Below are positions 31,231 through 58,791 of a stretch of 64,000 nt of DNA, in pieces; the stretch's first letter is position 1; every line of letters starts with the position of its first letter. The translations under genes were made by a program, and so were the position numbers. The stretch lies in assembly GCA_963761655.1 (NCBI GenBank), contig CAVXHI010000011.1:544935-608934 (forward strand). The letters run 5' to 3'. The notes beneath the pieces are model-generated. The model had not been told where the DNA came from. It searched no databases and was given only the letters and a program-made list of their open reading frames with translations. The stretch comes from an uncultured Actinomycetota bacterium. Its GTDB lineage: Bacteria > Actinomycetota > Actinomycetes > Mycobacteriales > SCTD01.

Positions 31231-31344
31231 AGGGGCCTCCTCGGGTGCGGTGGGGGCCCAGGCGCGCGGCGGGCGTCGAGACGACGCGGGGCCGCTCCCC
31301 GGTGGTGGTCCACCTGCAGCGCCAGTCACGGTCCCGGGAGGAGG

Positions 31345-52392: not shown

Positions 52393-54096
52393 ATGTTCGA
52401 GAAGCGTCGGTCGACGAGTGGGCTGTTCCCGGTGTGCCGTTCGGTGCTGTCGCCGACGACCCCGTCGAGGTCGCCCAGCCCGTCGTGGACCCTTCTCCCG
52501 GCGCGGACGTCGTGGCGCTCGCTGTGGCTGTGGAGCGGGCCCTGCTGGTGGTGCCGTCGGTGCTGTCGCCCCGTGCGGCGGTGGTCCGGGCGGAGGCGCT
52601 GCTGGCGCTGCAGGAACGGGTCGGCGGCGGCGGCCCTGTGTGCGGTCGCTGATGTGGAGGAGCGGGGCTTGTGGCGGGAGCGGCAGGCCGGGTCGACCCG
52701 GACGTGGCTGCGGACGCTGCCGTGCGGCGACACCGGTCAGCTCGCGCTGAGCCGGCTGCTGCGGGACCGGCCGGTGCTCGGGCAGGCGTTCGCCGACGGC
52801 CGCGTCTCGGCGAGGACGTTCGGGGCGGTCGCTCGTGAGCTCGCCCGCGTCCCGCTCCAGGTGGAGCCGGAGCAGCTCGAGGGCGTGCTCGTCGACGGTC
52901 TCGGCGAGGTGCTGCGGGTCTGGGCGGGCGCGGCGTGCCTGGACCCGACCCCGGAGCAGGAGGCGGTGTTCGACGAGCGCCGGGAGCTGCTCGCGACCGT
53001 GGTCCGGTCAGGGCTGCAGGACACCTGGTCCGACGCTGCGGGCAAGCTCGAACCGGCGTTCACGCTGGCGGCGACGGTGCTGGCTCCGGCGGAGGTCGTC
53101 TCGGGGGTGCGGCTGCTGGTCGACGCCCTGCAGCCCGAGGCGCAGACCGACCAGGCGGCCGAGCAGGCGTACCGCGACCGGGGGCTGTCGCTGCGCAAGC
53201 TCAAGTCCGGCGGCTGGTCGTTGCGGGCGCACCTGACCGACGAGGTCGGGCAGCACCTGCACGACGAGCTCGTGTCCCGCGACCCGGACAGTCCGGCCCA
53301 CAAGGCCCGCCTGACCCGGCAGCACGCCGCACCCGACCCCGACGGCGTCACCGTCGAGGACGTCCTGCGGCCCGACGCGACCGACCAGGACTCGCCGGGC
53401 AGGGCGACGGAGACCGACGGGAACGGGGACGACGACCGCATCGAGGCCGCCACGCCCGAGGACGTCGACCTCGACGTCGATGCTGCCGAGACGGACCGCT
53501 TCGGTGCCGCCGGCGCGGGCGTCGACCCCGACCCGTTCGACGGTCACGTCGAGGGCGAGGTCCTGGGCAGCCGCGACCAGCGCGCCCACGACGCGTTCGC
53601 CCAGCTCCTCGCCGACCTCACCACCTGCGCCCCCAGCGCCGGCACCCCCGCGCCCAGCCACCTCACCATCACTGCCAGCGTCGACGCCCTCGACGGCACG
53701 CCCGGAGCACCACCGGGCCGCCTCCACACCAGCAGCGGCGACGTCCCCCTCACCCCCAGCCAACTACGCCGGCACGGCTGCACCAGCCTGCTGTCCGCGG
53801 TCCTCACCGACGCGCGAGACAGACCGGTCGCAGCCTCCGGCGACCACCGGCACGCCACCGCCCGGGAACGCCGCGCCCTGCACGCCGCCTGGGGCACCAC
53901 CTGCGCCGTCAACGGCTGCACCCACACCGGCACCGTGCCGCACCACGCCGAACCCTGGTGGAAGACCCACCAGACCACCGTCAAAGACCTCGTCCCGCTC
54001 TGCCAGCACCACCACCACGACCTGCACGACGGCAGCAAGACCCTGCGCCTGCGCGACGACCGGTGCATCGACGAGTGGGGCTGGACAAGCAGCTGA
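52393..54096 (+). CDS. DUF222 / HNH endonuclease family protein (13E12-repeat-like); N-terminal about 80 codons appear out of frame
   Basis: C-terminal HNH box CAVNGCTHTGTVPHHAEPWW...LVPLCQHHHHDLH. DUF222-like AVADVEERGLWRERQAGSTRTWL. Residues about 7-80 are W/C/R-rich, while the -1 frame reads a normal sequence ending LSPRAAVVRAEALLALQERVGGGG. Confidence 0.75.
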   Translation: MFEKRRSTSGLFPVCRSVLSPTTPSRSPSPSWTLLPARTSWRSLWLWSGPCWWCRRCCRPVRRWSGRRRCWRCRNGSAAAALCAVADVEERGLWRERQAGSTRTWLRTLPCGDTGQLALSRLLRDRPVLGQAFADGRVSARTFGAVARELARVPLQVEPEQLEGVLVDGLGEVLRVWAGAACLDPTPEQEAVFDERRELLATVVRSGLQDTWSDAAGKLEPAFTLAATVLAPAEVVSGVRLLVDALQPEAQTDQAAEQAYRDRGLSLRKLKSGGWSLRAHLTDEVGQHLHDELVSRDPDSPAHKARLTRQHAAPDPDGVTVEDVLRPDATDQDSPGRATETDGNGDDDRIEAATPEDVDLDVDAAETDRFGAAGAGVDPDPFDGHVEGEVLGSRDQRAHDAFAQLLADLTTCAPSAGTPAPSHLTITASVDALDGTPGAPPGRLHTSSGDVPLTPSQLRRHGCTSLLSAVLTDARDRPVAASGDHRHATARERRALHAAWGTTCAVNGCTHTGTVPHHAEPWWKTHQTTVKDLVPLCQHHHHDLHDGSKTLRLRDDRCIDEWGWTSS

Positions 54097-54114: not shown

Positions 54115-54588
54115 CTAGAAGAGGGTCTCGTCGGACGGTCCGCGCTCCAGCGCCAGCAGGGCCGTCTTGCGCTCCACCCCGCCCGCGTAGCCGCGCAGGT
54201 TCCCGTCGCTGCCGATCACCCGGTGGCACGGCACGAGCACGGCGACCGGGTTGCGCCCGTTCGCCGACCCGACCGCACGGACCGCGCCGGGAGACCCGAC
54301 GCGCTGGGCCAGCTCCGCGTACGTCGCCGTCGTCCCGTACGGGATGCGCTGCAGCTCCGCCCAGACGGCCTGCTGGAACGGCGTCCCCGGCGGCCGGACC
54401 GGCACGGTGAACGCGCGGCGTCCGGAGCAGAAGTACTCGGTCAGCTCGCGCACGCCCTGGTCGAGCACGGGGCACGAGGACGGCTCACCTGCGGGCAGCT
54501 CGGCCGGCGCGAACGACACCCGCACCAGCACGCCGTCGGACTCCGACAGCAGCACGTCCCCGAGCGGCGACGGGCAGGTGGTCCACAC
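54115..54588 (-). CDS. ogt: methylated-DNA--protein-cysteine methyltransferase
   Basis: TPFQQAVWAELQRIPYGTTATYAELA, NGRNPVAVLVPCHRVIGSDG (PCHRV active site). GTG 54588. Confidence 0.9.
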   Translation of the reverse strand: MWTTCPSPLGDVLLSESDGVLVRVSFAPAELPAGEPSSCPVLDQGVRELTEYFCSGRRAFTVPVRPPGTPFQQAVWAELQRIPYGTTATYAELAQRVGSPGAVRAVGSANGRNPVAVLVPCHRVIGSDGNLRGYAGGVERKTALLALERGPSDETLF

Positions 54589-54612
54589 CCGGCCGACCGT
54601 ACTGTCCAGCAG

Positions 54613-55212
54613 GTGCGATGCGGGCCGGCAGCAGGTGGAGGCCGCTGGGTCGACGTCCCGCCGGAGCGGCTGGCCGGCTGGCTCGCCCGCTTCGCCGAGG
54701 AGCACGGGTCGGTGACCGTCGACGGCCTGGCGCACTCGGCGCAGGACGGCGCCGTCGCCGTCCTCACGCCCCCGTACCGTCCCGTGAGCGAGGAGCTGAC
54801 GCCGGACCTCCGGGTCGGGGTGCTGCTCGTCCGGCTCGGCGGGTACGCCGCCGGGGTCTTCGAAGGGACGACGTTGATCACCAGCAAGGTCGGCAGCCGG
54901 CAGGTCCACGGCCGCAGCGCGGCGGGCGGGCAGAGCCAGCAGCGGTTCGCCCGACGGCGCGACAACCAGGTCACGGTCGCCTACGCGACGGCGGCCGACA
55001 ACGCGGTGCGCCACCTGGCCGCCGAGCGGCTGGACGTCGTCGTCACGGGCGGGGAGCGCACGGCGGTCGACGCGGTGCTGGCCGACCGTCGTCTGGAGCA
55101 CCTGCGGGCGAAGGTCGTCGACCGGCTGCTCGACGTGCCCGACCCCCGGCACGCCGTCCTGCTGGGCAGCCCGGGGCTGTTCCGCGCGGTCCGCGTCACG
55201 GTCCACGCATGA
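54613..55212 (+). CDS. acVLRF1-like (Vms1/ANKZF1-related) peptidyl-tRNA hydrolase family protein
   Basis: 199 aa. VLLVRLGGYAAGVFEG...SKVGSRQVHGRSAAGGQSQQRFARRRDNQ carries the GGQ-like Gln loop plus the RFxRRR of VLRF1 domains. GTG 54613 lies 24 nt from the divergent ogt start. Confidence 0.65.
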   Translation: MRCGPAAGGGRWVDVPPERLAGWLARFAEEHGSVTVDGLAHSAQDGAVAVLTPPYRPVSEELTPDLRVGVLLVRLGGYAAGVFEGTTLITSKVGSRQVHGRSAAGGQSQQRFARRRDNQVTVAYATAADNAVRHLAAERLDVVVTGGERTAVDAVLADRRLEHLRAKVVDRLLDVPDPRHAVLLGSPGLFRAVRVTVHA

Positions 55213-55904
55213 CGCCGCCGGACAGGCTGCGCACCACCAGCACGCCCGAGGACCGCGCCCTGCTGAACGCGGTGCTCGGCGTCGTCGTCCCGGTCGACGA
55301 CGTCCCCGCGCTGCTCGACCCGCGTGGCGCCCGGTTCCAGCGCCTGGAGTGGCTGGGCGACAGCCTGCTCGACGTCCTGGTGGCCCGGGTCCGCGCGAGC
55401 GAGCCGTCCCTGCGCCGGCAGGACCTCACCAGCGACGCCGCCCTGGCCGAGAGGGTCCTGGCGACCGGGCTGCCGGAGCGGCTCGACTGGGAGCCGTCGC
55501 CGCAGCGGCTGGCCGACCTCGTCGAGGCCGCGATCGCCGCAGGCCACCGGGCGGCCGGCTTCTTCGGCGCCCGCACCGTCGCGGTGCGCCTGGTGTCGGA
55601 GGTCCTGGCGCAGCCGGCGGTGCCGAAGGGGCTCACCGCGGCCCAGGCGGCCGAGGCGGGGAGCGCCGTGATGGAGGCAGCCGTCGCGCTGCTGCTGTTC
55701 GCCAAGCACCCGGACGACGACGAGGGCGAGCTGTCGACGCGGCGGGCCGGGCTGCTCGACAGCGACCGGGTGGCGCGCCGGCACGGCGACGGCCAGGGCC
55801 CGGTCGGGGAGCAGGTCGACCGGCTCCAGGCGGAGCTCGGCCGGGTGCTGGTCATCCGGGGAGAGCAGGCCGCCGTCCACGCCGCGCTGCCGTACCTGCG
55901 CTGA
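55209..55904 (+). CDS. RNase III catalytic-domain protein without dsRBD (Mini-III-like)
   Basis: ATGA overlap with the upstream stop. RNase III signature FQRLEWLGDSLLDVLVA and second acidic motif LADLVEAAIAA. 231 aa. Confidence 0.65.
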   Translation: MTPPDRLRTTSTPEDRALLNAVLGVVVPVDDVPALLDPRGARFQRLEWLGDSLLDVLVARVRASEPSLRRQDLTSDAALAERVLATGLPERLDWEPSPQRLADLVEAAIAAGHRAAGFFGARTVAVRLVSEVLAQPAVPKGLTAAQAAEAGSAVMEAAVALLLFAKHPDDDEGELSTRRAGLLDSDRVARRHGDGQGPVGEQVDRLQAELGRVLVIRGEQAAVHAALPYLR

Positions 55905-57177
55905 CGGCCACGACCGCGAGCGCCGCCCCGTAGGACAGCCGCCCGACGAGCTGCTCGGGTCCGTCCAGGATCGTGACGAAGAACAGCGGGTAGGCGGCGG
56001 CCGCCACCGCGAGGCCGGGCCACCAGCCGGACACGCAGACCAGCGCGACGAGCAGCAGCGAGTACCAGGGCTGCACCGGCGTCAGCAGCAGGAAGACCCC
56101 GCTGAGCAGGCGCGCACCGGCGTCGGGGAACGGCAGCGACGTCCGCAGCGCCCACCCGACGACGCCGACCAGCCCCAGCGCGACCACGACGGTCGCGGCC
56201 GTCCCCGAGAGCCCGAGCAGTCCGACGAGCAGGTAGCGCGTGCCCTCGCCGTACTTCTCCTCGGCGAGGTAGCCGGGCAGGTAGCCGACGACGCGGGTGC
56301 CGACGGCGAGCACGTGCGGCAGGTAGCCGAGCACCGCGACCGCGGCCGCGACCAGCACGACCCCGACCGGACGACGGCCCCGGCGCAGCAGCAGCGGGAA
56401 CAGCAGCGCCGGGTACACCTTCACCAGCGTCGCGAGGGCGAGCAGCGCCGACGCCGGGAGCACCCGGCCGCGCCGCTCCAGCGCGACCGCCCCGCAGACG
56501 AGCAGCACCCCGAGGACGTCGACGTGCGCGTTCTGCACCGCCTCGAGCACCGGCAGCGGCGTCAGCGCGTAGACGGCGGCCCAGCGGCGGTCGCGGGCGA
56601 GGGCCAGCAGGCAGGCGAGGACGGCGAGGTCGAGCACGAGCCCCGCGCCCTCGTAGCCGCGGTCCCGCGCCTGCAGGGGCACGACCTGGTGCTCCAGCCA
56701 GAACCACGCCTCCGCCACGGGCGGGTAGATGGTCCGCACGTTCGCCCGGTTGATCTTCGTCTGCGTGTCGGTGCCGCGCAGCGAGGGCGGCCAGATCCAG
56801 TCCATGCCCTCGACGTCGCGCAGGCGCTCCAGCTGCGGCGCCTCGGGCACGTACCGGTACGGGTCGATGCCCTCGCTCTGCACGACGCCGTCCCAGGCGT
56901 ACCGGTAGAGGTCGTCGGACAGCGGCGCCTTCGGCGACAGCGCCGCGAGCCGGACGACGACGGCGCCGAGCAGCAGCAGCGCGACGGCGGTGCGGCGCGG
57001 CAGGCGCAGGACGCAGAGCACGGTGCCGGCCGACACCAGCGCCCAGACGGCGATCACCAGCAGCAGCGCGTACCGGCGCTCGATGATCCCGCCCGGGCCC
57101 GAGGACAGCCGCGCCAGCACGGCCTGCACCGCGACGCCGGCGACCGCACCGGCGAGCAGCAGCCGGTGCCGGGTCAC
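55852..57177 (-). CDS. polytopic glycosyltransferase, GT87/DUF2029 (PimE-like mannosyltransferase) family
   Basis: About 441 aa with about 10 TM segments. Early loop SDDLYRYAWDGVVQSEGIDPYRY is typical of DUF2029/GT87 enzymes. GTG 57177. The 3' end overlaps the convergent RNase III-domain gene by 53 nt. Confidence 0.7.
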   Translation of the reverse strand: MTRHRLLLAGAVAGVAVQAVLARLSSGPGGIIERRYALLLVIAVWALVSAGTVLCVLRLPRRTAVALLLLGAVVVRLAALSPKAPLSDDLYRYAWDGVVQSEGIDPYRYVPEAPQLERLRDVEGMDWIWPPSLRGTDTQTKINRANVRTIYPPVAEAWFWLEHQVVPLQARDRGYEGAGLVLDLAVLACLLALARDRRWAAVYALTPLPVLEAVQNAHVDVLGVLLVCGAVALERRGRVLPASALLALATLVKVYPALLFPLLLRRGRRPVGVVLVAAAVAVLGYLPHVLAVGTRVVGYLPGYLAEEKYGEGTRYLLVGLLGLSGTAATVVVALGLVGVVGWALRTSLPFPDAGARLLSGVFLLLTPVQPWYSLLLVALVCVSGWWPGLAVAAAAYPLFFVTILDGPEQLVGRLSYGAALAVVAVSAGTAARRGRRPALPG

Positions 57178-57309: not shown

Positions 57310-57981
57310 ATGCGCATCACCAAGAGCCGCAAGGCCTTCACGACGATCGCCCTGGCCGGCACCCTGGCCCTGAGCATGTCCGCGTGCAGCAACAACGACG
57401 CCGAGAGCGGCAGCGACAACACGCCGGCCGCCGCCGCCACCCCGGCCGCCGTCATCGCGAACCTGACCGGCACCACGACCGCCGTGAAGCTCGACCAGGG
57501 CTTCGTCGACGGCCTCACCAGCCTCAAGCTGACCCCCGGCGTCATCGGCACCGCCAAGCTCACCGACGGCAGCCTCGTCTTCCCGATCACCGGTGGCAAC
57601 GCGAAGTACTGGACGCCCGGCACGCACGAGCCGTACGTCGAGGGCTCCCTCATGCACGACGGCTCGGGCATCACCCTCGAGGACGCCGCCAAGAAGACCA
57701 AGGTCTCCCTCGAGAACTTCGTCGTCGACCCGGGCACCTCGATGCTGACCGGCAAGGTCTCCGCCAACGGCACCGTCGTCGCCGAGTCCGCTCCCCTGTT
57801 CTTCCTCGACGGCAGCACCCTCCAGCCGCTCAAGATGGAGAACGGCGCGCCCGTCCTCGAGGGCACCACGGTCTCCCTCACCAAGACGGCTGCCGACCTG
57901 CTGAACAAGACCTACGGCACCACCGCTCTCACCGAGTTCTTCAAGGTCGGCGTCGCGAAGATCACCCTCGCCGGCAGCTAG
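57310..57981 (+). CDS. uncharacterized lipoprotein (paralogue A)
   Basis: Lipobox LALSMSAC and GAGAGGA before ATG 57310. Homologous to 58135..58791 (shared FPITGGNA.Y.TPGT..PYV.G...HDGSG, NF.VDPG.SMLTG.V.ANGT.V.E..PLFFLDGSTL.PL). Confidence 0.75.
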   Translation: MRITKSRKAFTTIALAGTLALSMSACSNNDAESGSDNTPAAAATPAAVIANLTGTTTAVKLDQGFVDGLTSLKLTPGVIGTAKLTDGSLVFPITGGNAKYWTPGTHEPYVEGSLMHDGSGITLEDAAKKTKVSLENFVVDPGTSMLTGKVSANGTVVAESAPLFFLDGSTLQPLKMENGAPVLEGTTVSLTKTAADLLNKTYGTTALTEFFKVGVAKITLAGS

Positions 57982-58134: not shown

Positions 58135-58791
58135 ATGCGCAAGAGCCTGCTGACCGTCGCCCTCGTGGGCGCCCTGTCCCTGACCCTGTCCGCCTGCGGC
58201 GACGACGCGGAGGACACCGGCAGCGGCAAGGCCGACGCGTCCAAGCCGGTCGCGCAGATCGACAACCTCACCGGCAAGATGACCCAGGTGACGCTCGACT
58301 CCGCCTTCGTCACCGGCCTGAAGACCCTCGGCCTCACGCCGGGCACCGTCGGCACCGCCACCATCAGCCCCGAGGGCGTCGCGACCTTCCCGATCACGGG
58401 CGGCAACGCGACCTACTACACCCCCGGCACGAAGGACCCGTACGTCACCGGCCTGATCAACCACGACGGCTCGGGCCTCTCGCTGTCCGCCGGCGGCACC
58501 AAGGTCGAGCTGAAGAACTTCGACGTCGACCCCGGCGCCTCGATGCTCACCGGTGACGTCACCGCCAACGGCACCACCGTCGTCGAGAACACCCCGCTGT
58601 TCTTCCTCGACGGCAGCACCCTCAAGCCGCTCGACACCTCCACGGGCGACGGCGTCCTCGAGGGCACCCAGGTCAAGATCGCCCCCGGTGCGGCCGCGCT
58701 GCTCAACAAGACGTTCAAGACCGACAAGGTCCAGGACTTCGCGCTCGTCGGCATCGCCAAGATCACGCTGACGGTCCCCGCCGCCAAGTAG
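58135..58791 (+). CDS. uncharacterized lipoprotein (paralogue B)
   Basis: Lipobox LTLSAC and GAGAGGA before the ATG. About half of the positions are identical to paralogue A, by eye. Confidence 0.75.
   Translation: MRKSLLTVALVGALSLTLSACGDDAEDTGSGKADASKPVAQIDNLTGKMTQVTLDSAFVTGLKTLGLTPGTVGTATISPEGVATFPITGGNATYYTPGTKDPYVTGLINHDGSGLSLSAGGTKVELKNFDVDPGASMLTGDVTANGTTVVENTPLFFLDGSTLKPLDTSTGDGVLEGTQVKIAPGAAALLNKTFKTDKVQDFALVGIAKITLTVPAAK

What the first reader, a model, noticed from the sequence alone, without database searches (positions are those of the whole stretch)
54613..55904. Translationally coupled acVLRF1-like peptidyl-tRNA hydrolase plus dsRBD-less RNase III gene pair: candidate ribosome/RNA quality-control module
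The first ORF (199 aa) carries AAGGQSQQRFARRR. This is a Gln-containing loop followed by RFxRRR, as in the VLRF1 domain of eukaryotic Vms1/ANKZF1, which releases nascent chains from stalled 60S subunits. The second ORF starts in an ATGA overlap with the first stop. It has both RNase III catalytic motifs (EWLGDSLLDVLV and DLVEAAIAA) but no double-stranded-RNA-binding domain, like Mini-III-type rRNA processing enzymes. A release-factor-like hydrolase physically coupled to a structured-RNA nuclease suggests a two-component system acting on stalled ribosomes or their tRNA/rRNA. I know of no experimental description of such a bacterial pair. Two context features are also unusual. The pair's start lies only 24 nt from the divergent ogt start (54588 versus 54613), so at least one transcript must be leaderless or promoted from inside the neighbour. 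Its 3' end also overlaps the convergent GT87 gene by 53 nt.
Basis: partly seen in the sequence, partly recalled or inferred. Interest (0 to 1): 0.7.

Follow-up and report, generated by a model that had tools for sequence, protein, structure and literature searches.

The report
Release-factor-like hydrolase plus tandem RNase III
Two overlapping actinobacterial genes encode a Vms1-like peptide-release enzyme and a rare bacterial RNase III made of two fused nuclease domains with one working active site; the pairing occurs only in a small clade, so a joint role in rescuing stalled ribosomes is plausible but unproven.

Summary
The sequence observation holds. ORF1 (54613-55212, GTG start, 199 aa) is a clear acVLRF1-family release-factor-like protein with the invariant GGxSQ-RFARRR loop. 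ORF2 (55209-55904, 231 aa) starts in an ATGA overlap, carries an intact RNase III catalytic tetrad and has no dsRBD.

ORF2 is not Mini-III-like. A confident AlphaFold model (pLDDT 96.6) matches the tandem RIIIa+RIIIb cores of Drosha and Dicer. Its C-terminal half is a second, degenerate RNase III domain, so the protein is a single-chain pseudo-dimer with one active site.

This family is rare: about 35 to 100 clusters among 1.84 billion representative proteins. All named members are actinobacterial and annotated as hypothetical.

The pairing is not general. None of 80 acVLRF1 loci from other genomes has such a neighbour. It is kept in close relatives (5 of 7 members at 58-87% ORF2 identity).

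In a different clade the same RNase family is coupled by a 4-nt overlap to prfB (RF2), a non-homologous release factor. That keeps the ribosome-rescue hypothesis alive. Other members follow sbcC or stand alone.

Verdict: genes correctly identified, architecture corrected, module hypothesis weakly supported. The bacterial tandem RNase III is the more novel part.

The parts
54115..54588 (-). ogt (O6-methylguanine-DNA methyltransferase), divergent neighbour, GTG start at 54588
   Evidence: PF01035 at 121.5 bits and PF02870 at 27.9 bits. The same divergent ogt/acVLRF1 arrangement occurs in L085 and L086.
54589..54612 (.). 24-nt divergent intergenic region with the palindrome-like ACCGTACTGT (54596-54605). 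TACTGT lies on + (54600-54605), 7 nt before GTG 54613. TACGGT lies on - (complement of 54596-54601), 7 nt before GTG 54588. These are inferred overlapping -10 boxes for two leaderless mRNAs.
   Evidence: Read directly. The motif is unique in the window. Among 114 loci it is found only in the related loci L085, L086 and L108, 6 nt upstream of the acVLRF1 GTG. No sigma-70 consensus promoter was found. The function is inferred.
54613..55212 (+). ORF1: acVLRF1-family release-factor-like protein (predicted peptidyl-tRNA hydrolase), 199 aa
   Evidence: PF18859 E=4.5e-42; NF041024 at 213.5 bits against a cutoff of 125. The AF2 model has pLDDT 89.6. Foldseek gives eRF1/aRF1 M-domain, Pelota, Balon and Vms1.
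54925..54960 (+). Catalytic loop and Arg helix GGQSQQRFARRR (residues 105-116; GGxSQ motif, Q109)
   Evidence: G105, G106, S108, Q109, R111, F112, A113, R114, R115 and R116 are invariant in 30 homologues. The region aligns with the GGQ region of aRF1. The motif is defined in PMC6514570.
55209..55212 (+). ATGA start/stop overlap between ORF1 and ORF2
   Evidence: The same 4-nt overlap occurs in L107, L108 and L109. L085 has a 7-nt gap instead.
55209..55904 (+). ORF2: single-chain tandem RNase III (active domain A plus degenerate domain B), no dsRBD, 231 aa
   Evidence: PF00636 at 38.1 bits against a cutoff of 27, in two stretches. The AF2 model has pLDDT 96.6 and is all-helical. The best Foldseek PDB hits are Drosha, Dicer and DCL, with TMq 0.65-0.72.
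55242..55613 (+). RNase III domain A (about residues 12-135). Signature QRLEWLGDSLLD at 55338-55373 and RLADLVEAAIAA at 55506-55541. Catalytic residues E47, D51, D103, E106.
   Evidence: The tetrad is conserved in 70 of 72 full-length family members. The domain aligns with bacterial RNase III and with a catalytic domain of Drosha and Dicer.
55626..55901 (+). RNase III-like domain B (about residues 140-231), degenerate. AEAGSAVMEAAV at 55650-55685 has G151-S152 in place of GD. VDRLQAELG at 55815-55841 has Q207 in place of Glu.
   Evidence: The profile matches DCL3 RIIIa (i-E 6e-4) and M. tuberculosis RNase III. It aligns in register with domain A. The GD Asp is S or A in 66 of 72 members and the Glu is Q in 51 of 72.
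55852..57177 (-). GT87-family glycosyltransferase, convergent. Its last 53 nt (55852-55904) overlap the 3' end of ORF2.
   Evidence: PF09594. The same convergent overlap of 50-53 nt occurs in L107-L109.

Best explanation
This is a lineage-restricted two-gene operon, probably transcribed as a leaderless bicistronic mRNA. ORF1 is an acVLRF1, a stand-alone catalytic domain of the archaeo-eukaryotic release factor type. By homology to Vms1/ANKZF1 it is predicted to release nascent chains from peptidyl-tRNA on obstructed large ribosomal subunits. ORF2 is translated by termination-reinitiation at the ATGA overlap. It is a compact single-chain pseudo-dimer of two RNase III domains, like the Drosha/Dicer catalytic core but with only domain A active. 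It should therefore bind an RNA duplex and cut only one of its strands.

The most likely joint function is an accessory one. The RNase domain pair would recognise, and nick, a double-stranded RNA element of the same stalled-translation substrate on which the release-factor-like partner acts. Candidates are the peptidyl-tRNA stem, an rRNA helix or an mRNA hairpin.

Shown here: the gene identities, the architecture, the motif conservation, the coupling and its phyletic extent. Inferred: the enzymatic activities, the substrate and the cooperation between the two proteins.
For: ORF1 family membership and the invariant Gln/Arg motif.

ORF2 tandem architecture and single intact active site.

The 4-nt overlap and the synteny (ogt/acVLRF1/RNase III/GT87) are kept in relatives at 58-87% ORF2 identity.

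Independent support for a link to class-I release factors: in another clade of the same RNase family (P0022 and P0024, 70% identical to each other), the gene overlaps by 4 nt (ATGA or GTGA) the stop of prfB. That prfB encodes RF2 with SPF and GGQ motifs, and the RNase gene sits in front of ftsE-ftsX.

So about 2 of 8 distinct contexts have a non-homologous release-factor-type hydrolase immediately upstream. The chance expectation is roughly 1e-3 per context. This is my own post-hoc estimate.

There are no plasmid, phage or defence-system hits.
Against: None of 80 acVLRF1 loci from other genomes (46-66% identity) has an ORF2-family gene within 4 kb. acVLRF1 neighbourhoods are lineage-specific.

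ORF2 homologues at 69-71% identity (P0013, P0011) and at 43-46% identity (P0026, P0018) have no acVLRF1 next to them.

Other members are coupled to sbcC. Overlap with whatever gene lies upstream may therefore be a habit of this family rather than a sign of partnership.

In the acVLRF1-adjacent clade P0015/P0016 the domain A catalytic residues are replaced (E47A, D51R, E106R). Cleavage therefore cannot be essential to any shared role.

There are no experimental data for either family. PMC6514570 describes prokaryotic VLRF-1 proteins as stand-alone.
Confidence: 0.42

Rival explanations
1. Neighbours by descent only. The tandem RNase III is an independent RNA-processing enzyme acting on rRNA, mRNA or antisense duplexes. 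It tends to ride at the 3' end of unrelated operons, and the acVLRF1 adjacency is clade-specific synteny without functional cooperation.
For: Upstream partners are variable: acVLRF1, prfB, sbcC, LMWPc phosphatase or none. None of 80 other acVLRF1 loci has the pair. The whole block ogt/acVLRF1/RNase/GT87 is syntenic in close relatives, as expected from shared ancestry alone. The conserved 50-53-nt convergent overlap with GT87 would itself generate a dsRNA, which is a typical RNase III substrate (this point is inference).
Against: Two independent couplings to non-homologous release factors are unlikely by chance. The adjacency survives to 58% identity, although it was lost in an intermediate lineage.
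Confidence: 0.35
2. ORF2 acts mainly as a non-catalytic duplex-RNA-binding adaptor. It would dock the minimal acVLRF1, which lacks the ribosome- and codon-binding domains of eRF1 and Vms1, onto an rRNA or tRNA helix. Cleavage would be dispensable.
For: P0015 and P0016, which are still adjacent to acVLRF1 in L085, have lost E47, D51 and E106. [quoted passage not shown]
Against: The catalytic tetrad of domain A is conserved in 70 of 72 members, including the window protein. That argues for selection on catalysis in most lineages.
Confidence: 0.12
3. One reading: ORF2 is a Mini-III-type homodimeric, dsRBD-less RNase III that matures 23S rRNA.
For: There is no dsRBD and an intact RNase III signature is present.
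Against: At 231 aa the protein holds two RNase III-like domains in one chain. Foldseek prefers Drosha and Dicer tandem cores (TMq about 0.7) over single bacterial domains (TMq about 0.4). The family is far too rare to be a general rRNA maturase.
Confidence: 0.05
4. The pair is a toxin-antitoxin or anti-phage defence module.
For: It is a small, overlapping two-gene unit with a nuclease, and its distribution is patchy.
Against: There are no PADLOC hits and no homologues on plasmids or phages. acVLRF1 is a widespread chromosomal family with more than 7,000 homologous clusters. The context is housekeeping-type (ogt, GT87).
Confidence: 0.03

Closest known systems
acVLRF-1 family (Burroughs & Aravind 2019, PMC6514570; Pfam PF18859, NCBIfam NF041024)
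   Same: ORF1 scores far above both curated cutoffs. It has the GGxSQ loop, the Arg-rich helix and the short conserved N-terminal extension, and it has no stop-codon-binding domain.
   Different: Nothing about ORF1 itself differs. What is new is the neighbour. The defining paper calls prokaryotic VLRF-1 proteins stand-alone and never mentions RNase III.
Yeast Vms1 / human ANKZF1 (eukaryotic VLRF-1; releases nascent chains from 60S-peptidyl-tRNA in RQC)
   Same: Same superfamily and catalytic-loop logic. Vms1 on the 60S subunit (6r84) is among the structural matches.
   Different: ORF1 is only the catalytic domain. It lacks the Rei1 zinc finger, ankyrin repeats, VIM motif and Cdc48 link. Its closest structural matches are the eRF1/aRF1 M-domains, not Vms1. 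No activity has been shown for any bacterial member.
Drosha / Dicer catalytic core (RIIIa+RIIIb intramolecular dimer)
   Same: Two RNase III domains in one chain are predicted to pack as an intramolecular dimer. These are the best structural matches (TMq 0.65-0.72, E about 2e-5).
   Different: ORF2 is bacterial and only 231 aa. It has no PAZ, helicase, dsRBD or other accessory domains. Its second domain lacks the catalytic carboxylates, so one cut is expected rather than two. Sequence identity is 12-18%, which is compatible with an independent duplication.
Mini-III (MrnC) and canonical bacterial RNase III (Rnc)
   Same: RNase III signature and acidic tetrad. Like Mini-III, there is no dsRBD.
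   Different: Those enzymes are homodimers of single-domain chains with two active sites. ORF2 is a fused heterodimer-like chain with one. TIGR02191 scores 38.8 bits against a cutoff of 166, so ORF2 is not an Rnc orthologue.
RNase III heterodimers with one inactive subunit (engineered E. coli heterodimers; RNase III-like protein pairs of mitoribosomes). This comparison is from my own knowledge and was not tested here.
   Same: An active or inactive pairing of RNase III folds on one RNA duplex, giving single-strand cleavage or pure RNA binding.
   Different: Those cases are engineered or are separate polypeptides. A mitoribosome chain appears only as a weak hit (6ywe_9, rank 50).

Membership tests
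acVLRF1 (PF18859 / NF041024) | Profile score above the curated cutoffs | tested here: met
   PF18859 at 143.8 bits against 27.1. NF041024 at 213.5 bits against 125, covering residues 11-197.
acVLRF1 (PF18859 / NF041024) | GGxSQ catalytic loop followed by a conserved Arg-rich helix | tested here: met
   The sequence is GGQSQQRFARRR. G105, G106, S108, Q109, R111 and R114-R116 are invariant in 30 homologues. The motif is defined in PMC6514570.
acVLRF1 (PF18859 / NF041024) | Stand-alone RF-PH (RNase H-fold) domain with a short N-terminal extension and no stop-codon-binding or Pelota C-domain | tested here: met
   The protein is 199 aa. The AF2 model matches only the middle domain of eRF1/aRF1, over about 125-130 aligned columns. 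The N-terminus PAAGGGRWV is conserved.
acVLRF1 (PF18859 / NF041024) | Peptidyl-tRNA hydrolase (or tRNA nuclease) activity on large-subunit complexes | not testable with these tools
   This is a biochemical property. No experimental paper on bacterial VLRF1 was found.
RNase III superfamily (PF00636) | Profile score above the gathering cutoff, with the signature motif and four catalytic carboxylates | tested here: met
   PF00636 at 38.1 bits against 27. E47, D51, D103 and E106 are present and conserved in 70 of 72 family members.
Canonical bacterial RNase III (Rnc, TIGR02191) | Equivalog score and a C-terminal dsRBD | tested here: not met
   TIGR02191 at 38.8 bits against 166.25. There is no dsrm hit. 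The model is entirely helical.
Mini-III | A single RNase III domain per chain that acts as a homodimer | tested here: not met
   Two RNase III-like domains lie in one chain.
Drosha/Dicer-type (class 3/4) RNase III | Two RNase III domains in one polypeptide forming an intramolecular dimer | tested here: met
   The best PDB matches are Drosha, Dicer and DCL, with TMq 0.65-0.72. Single bacterial domains give about 0.4. This rests on a predicted structure only.
Drosha/Dicer-type (class 3/4) RNase III | Both domains catalytically competent, with accessory PAZ, helicase or dsRBD modules | tested here: not met
   Domain B has S152 in place of Asp and Q207 in place of Glu. No other domains are present in the 231 aa.
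Conserved acVLRF1 + RNase III gene pair | Adjacency conserved across the acVLRF1 family | tested here: not met
   None of 80 loci from species-representative genomes has an ORF2-family ORF within 4 kb.
Conserved acVLRF1 + RNase III gene pair | Adjacency conserved among relatives of ORF2 | tested here: inconclusive
   Present in the window, P0003, P0004, P0005 and P0016. Absent in P0011, P0013, P0018, P0026, P0037 and P0042. Replaced by prfB in P0022 and P0024.

The most novel reading that the evidence does not exclude
The tandem RNase III family is a dedicated nuclease partner of class-I release-factor-type hydrolases, either acVLRF1 or RF2. It would make a single-strand cut in a structured RNA at terminating or stalled ribosomes: an mRNA hairpin roadblock, the peptidyl-tRNA or an rRNA helix. 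That would be an undescribed RNA-cleaving arm of bacterial ribosome rescue, built on a bacterial Drosha/Dicer-like intramolecular RNase III dimer.
Probability: 0.2. Interest if true: 0.85.

Novelty: new variant of a known kind. Interest (0 to 1): 0.55.

Why it matters
Tandem RNase III domains in one chain are textbook eukaryotic features of Drosha and Dicer. A compact bacterial version with one dead domain would be a natural dsRNA 'nickase' and a minimal model for how intramolecular RNase III dimers arise.

acVLRF1 is a widespread actinobacterial family, including in genera that produce antibiotics, and it has no experimental characterisation. A partner gene gives a concrete handle for testing whether bacteria have a Vms1-like release step.

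The parallel coupling of the same RNase family to RF2 suggests a testable link between RNA cleavage and peptide release. If the link is not real, the finding reduces to a correct annotation of two genes plus a new RNase III architecture.

Tried and rejected
1. Conservation of the pair across Actinomycetota. I fetched 80 acVLRF1 loci from species-representative genomes and searched all six frames with a profile of the ORF2 family. There was no hit.

2. A first home-made gene caller based on GC3 picked antisense frames. I replaced it with a codon log-odds caller and masked acVLRF1.

3. The metagenome scan with the ORF2 profile returned mostly canonical RNase III. Only 4 hits were true family members, and 3 of them were in the sbcC context.

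4. Mini-III analogy: rejected on architecture.

5. Defence or mobile-element origin: no PADLOC, plasmid or phage hits.

6. Sigma-70 promoter and intrinsic terminator scans found nothing in 54300-56200.

7. No structured RNA or tRNA lies near the pair.

8. Literature searches found no paper on bacterial VLRF1 function and none on bacterial tandem RNase III proteins. The library is incomplete, so this is absence of evidence only.

9. The upstream ORF 52654-54093 looked like a DUF222/HNH protein. It gave no Pfam hit and only a weak HNH-motif similarity to a DUF222 protein, so I did not pursue it.

10. hhalign of the two halves of ORF2 against each other is weak (probability 10%, P=0.003). It is in register, but I use it only as supporting evidence.
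Full report
**1. What is in the sequence**

The window is 75% G+C. On the + strand, a GTG at 54613 opens a 199-codon frame that ends with TGA at 55210-55212. An ATG at 55209 opens a 231-codon frame that ends at 55904. The two frames share the tetranucleotide ATGA.

Both frames have the composition of real high-GC genes. GC3 is 0.94 and 0.98, and codon log-odds scores are 72.9 and 113.3. The antisense frame over ORF1 scores 26.5.

Homologues start at the same positions and are conserved from their first residues. This supports both start codons. It also shows that the public gene call for ORF1 (P0047, 166 aa) is truncated.

The divergent gene is ogt (PF01035 and PF02870), with a GTG at 54588. 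The convergent gene is a GT87 glycosyltransferase that ends at 55852.

**2. ORF1**

ORF1 is a member of the acVLRF1 family. PF18859 scores 143.8 bits against a cutoff of 27.1. NCBIfam NF041024 scores 213.5 bits against 125.

The loop GGQSQQRFARRR (54925-54960) fits the GGxSQ motif that Burroughs and Aravind give for this family (PMC6514570). G105, G106, S108, Q109 and the RFARRR helix are invariant in 30 homologues. Position 107 varies among Q, W and T.

A profile of the family aligns this region with the GGQ region of archaeal aRF1.

The AlphaFold model has pLDDT 89.6, with the loop itself at low confidence. It matches the middle domains of eRF1 and aRF1. More weakly, it matches Pelota/Dom34, the mycobacterial hibernation factor Balon, and yeast Vms1 on the 60S subunit.

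The family is large, with more than 7,400 clusters among the candidates scored. I found no experimental work on a bacterial member.

**3. ORF2**

Pfam Ribonuclease_3 passes its gathering score (38.1 bits against 27), but in two separate stretches, residues 43-77 and 151-189. The Rnc equivalog model fails (38.8 bits against 166), and no dsRBD is detected.

With an alignment of 31 family members, AlphaFold gives an all-helical model with pLDDT 96.6 and pTM 0.93.

Its best PDB matches are Drosha, Dicer and plant DCL proteins, with E from 2e-5 and TM-scores of 0.65-0.72 normalised on the query. Single bacterial RNase III catalytic domains cover only about 0.4 of the model.

At the sequence level, the C-terminal half of the family profile matches the RIIIa domain of DCL3 and M. 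tuberculosis RNase III. It also aligns in register, though weakly, with the N-terminal half.

Domain A keeps the tetrad E47, D51, D103, E106 in 70 of 72 full-length members. In domain B, the Asp of the GD pair is Ser or Ala in 66 of 72 members, and the last Glu is Gln in 51 of 72. No member has a complete set.

ORF2 is therefore a single-chain pseudo-dimer of RNase III domains with one catalytic centre. It is not a Mini-III-like homodimer. By established RNase III mechanism, where each domain cuts one strand, it should nick one strand of a duplex. This is inference.

**4. How rare the family is**

A full scan of 1.84 billion representative proteins found 35 clusters at E<=1e-30 and 104 at E<=1e-10. 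About 60-70 of the listed proteins show full-length, single-stretch coverage.

All named members are actinobacterial 'hypothetical proteins': a Frankiales MAG, Aquipuribacter, Geodermatophilus and Blastococcus.

There are no homologues in the plasmid or phage collections and no PADLOC hit.

I found no paper describing bacterial tandem RNase III proteins. This is absence of evidence only.

**5. Is the pair conserved?**

Starting from acVLRF1: 80 loci from species-representative genomes (46-66% identity to ORF1) contain no ORF2-family ORF within 4 kb. Their neighbours differ by lineage. They include a LysE translocator, an EAL/CBS protein, an ABC exporter, a Zn-peptidase, a DUF3516 helicase and an ABC-F ATPase.

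Starting from ORF2, the results were as follows.

| Member | Identity to ORF2 | Context |
|---|---|---|
| P0003, P0004, P0005 | 79-82% | acVLRF1 upstream with 4-nt overlap, plus the overlapping convergent GT87 gene |
| P0016 | 58% | ogt / acVLRF1 / RNase, with a 7-nt gap |
| P0011, P0013 | 69-71% | no acVLRF1 nearby |
| P0018, P0026, P0042 | about 40-46% | no acVLRF1 nearby |
| P0037 and three metagenomic relatives | about 40% | follows sbcD-sbcC with an overlap |

The adjacency is therefore probably ancestral to one subfamily and has been lost at least once. It is not a property of acVLRF1 in general.

**6. An independent hint**

In P0022 (L111), the homologue overlaps by ATGA the stop codon of a 373-aa PCRF+RF-1 protein. 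That protein carries SPF and GGQ motifs, so it is RF2.

In P0024 (L113, 70% identical to P0022), the contig begins with the same RF2 C-terminus. A GTGA overlap precedes the RNase gene, and ftsE, ftsX and an M23 peptidase follow.

So in two separate clades this rare RNase is translationally coupled to a class-I release-factor-type hydrolase, and the two hydrolases belong to unrelated folds. With three or four such genes per genome, the chance of this for 2 of about 8 contexts is of the order of 1e-5 to 1e-4. This is my own rough, post-hoc estimate.

This is the main reason I rank functional cooperation slightly above coincidence.

Two things weigh against it. The family also overlaps sbcC. And P0015/P0016, which are still next to acVLRF1, have replaced E47, D51 and E106. 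Any shared role there must be non-catalytic.

**7. Expression signals**

No sigma-70 consensus promoter or intrinsic terminator was found.

The 24-nt spacer contains ACCGTACTGT (54596-54605). Read on the + strand, it gives TACTGT 7 nt before GTG 54613. Read on the - strand, it gives TACGGT 7 nt before GTG 54588.

TANNNT at this distance is the arrangement known for leaderless actinobacterial mRNAs. That is from established knowledge and was not tested here.

The 10-mer is unique in the window. Among 114 loci it occurs only in the three related loci that include the region upstream of acVLRF1, each time 6 nt before the GTG.

No Shine-Dalgarno-like sequence precedes the ORF2 ATG. This is consistent with reinitiation at the ATGA.

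**8. Verdict**

The gene identifications are right. The Mini-III comparison is wrong and is replaced by a more unusual architecture.

The 'two-component quality-control module' is a lineage-restricted possibility with one independent line of support and several counter-indications.

The most novel element is the bacterial single-active-site tandem RNase III family itself.

Noticed in passing
L011, L016, L017, L030, L039, L042-L044, L046, L055, L068, L071, L079, L080 (downstream of acVLRF1, about 4.8-6.5 kb in locus coordinates): In 14 of 85 acVLRF1 loci, a 532-aa ABC-F-type ATPase (two ABC_tran domains plus the ABC_tran_Xtn linker) lies downstream on the same strand. The loci are mostly Streptosporangiaceae, with some Micromonosporaceae and MAGs. 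Yeast Vms1 was solved on the 60S subunit together with Arb1 (PDB 6r84 title); to my knowledge Arb1 is an ABC-F ATPase. This could be a more general acVLRF1 partner than the RNase III.
   Followed up: partly
L111 3883-5735; L113 1-2699: In another clade, the tandem RNase III gene is inserted between prfB (RF2) and ftsE-ftsX. Its start overlaps the prfB stop by 4 nt (ATGA or GTGA).
   Followed up: yes
L112 2-4583; L088 2-3780; L089; L090: A further subfamily of the tandem RNase III follows sbcD-sbcC (DNA hairpin nuclease) with an overlapping start. This gives a link to DNA repair rather than translation.
   Followed up: partly
P0015, P0016 (L085 1801-2496): These acVLRF1-adjacent homologues have lost the domain A catalytic residues (E47A, D51R, E106R) but keep full length. 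They look like nuclease-dead versions of the partner.
   Followed up: partly
Alignment A2, columns about 82-88 and 170-178; not in the window protein: Most distant family members carry a conserved Cys pair (CC or CxxC) after the first signature helix and a third Cys before domain B. This may be a metal site or a disulfide. The window's subfamily lacks it.
   Followed up: no
window 54596-54605: The near-palindrome ACCGTACTGT lies in the 24-nt ogt/acVLRF1 spacer. It is unique in the window and conserved in related loci. It could be a pair of overlapping -10 boxes for two leaderless mRNAs, or an operator.
   Followed up: partly
window 55852-55904: The 53-nt convergent overlap of ORF2 and GT87 is conserved at 50-53 nt in L107-L109. 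Convergent transcripts would form a dsRNA, which is the classic RNase III substrate.
   Followed up: no
window 57310-57981 and 58135-58791 (+): Two tandem paralogous predicted lipoprotein genes are 56% identical. Each has a signal peptide with a lipobox-like SAC motif and neither has a Pfam match. The same pair follows GT87 in L107 and L108.
   Followed up: partly
window 31249-31339 (-): A ZMP/ZTP riboswitch (RF01750, 45 bits against a gathering score of 39) is the only Rfam hit in the window.
   Followed up: no
window 52654-54096 (+): This large ORF has a C-terminal HNH-like Cys/His motif. It has no Pfam hit and only weak motif similarity to a DUF222 protein that neighbours an ORF2 homologue in L001.
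   Followed up: partly
window 54613-54711: The public gene call for ORF1 (P0047, 166 aa) starts 33 codons too late. The conserved N-terminal extension PAAGGGRWV shows that the GTG at 54613 is the start.
   Followed up: yes
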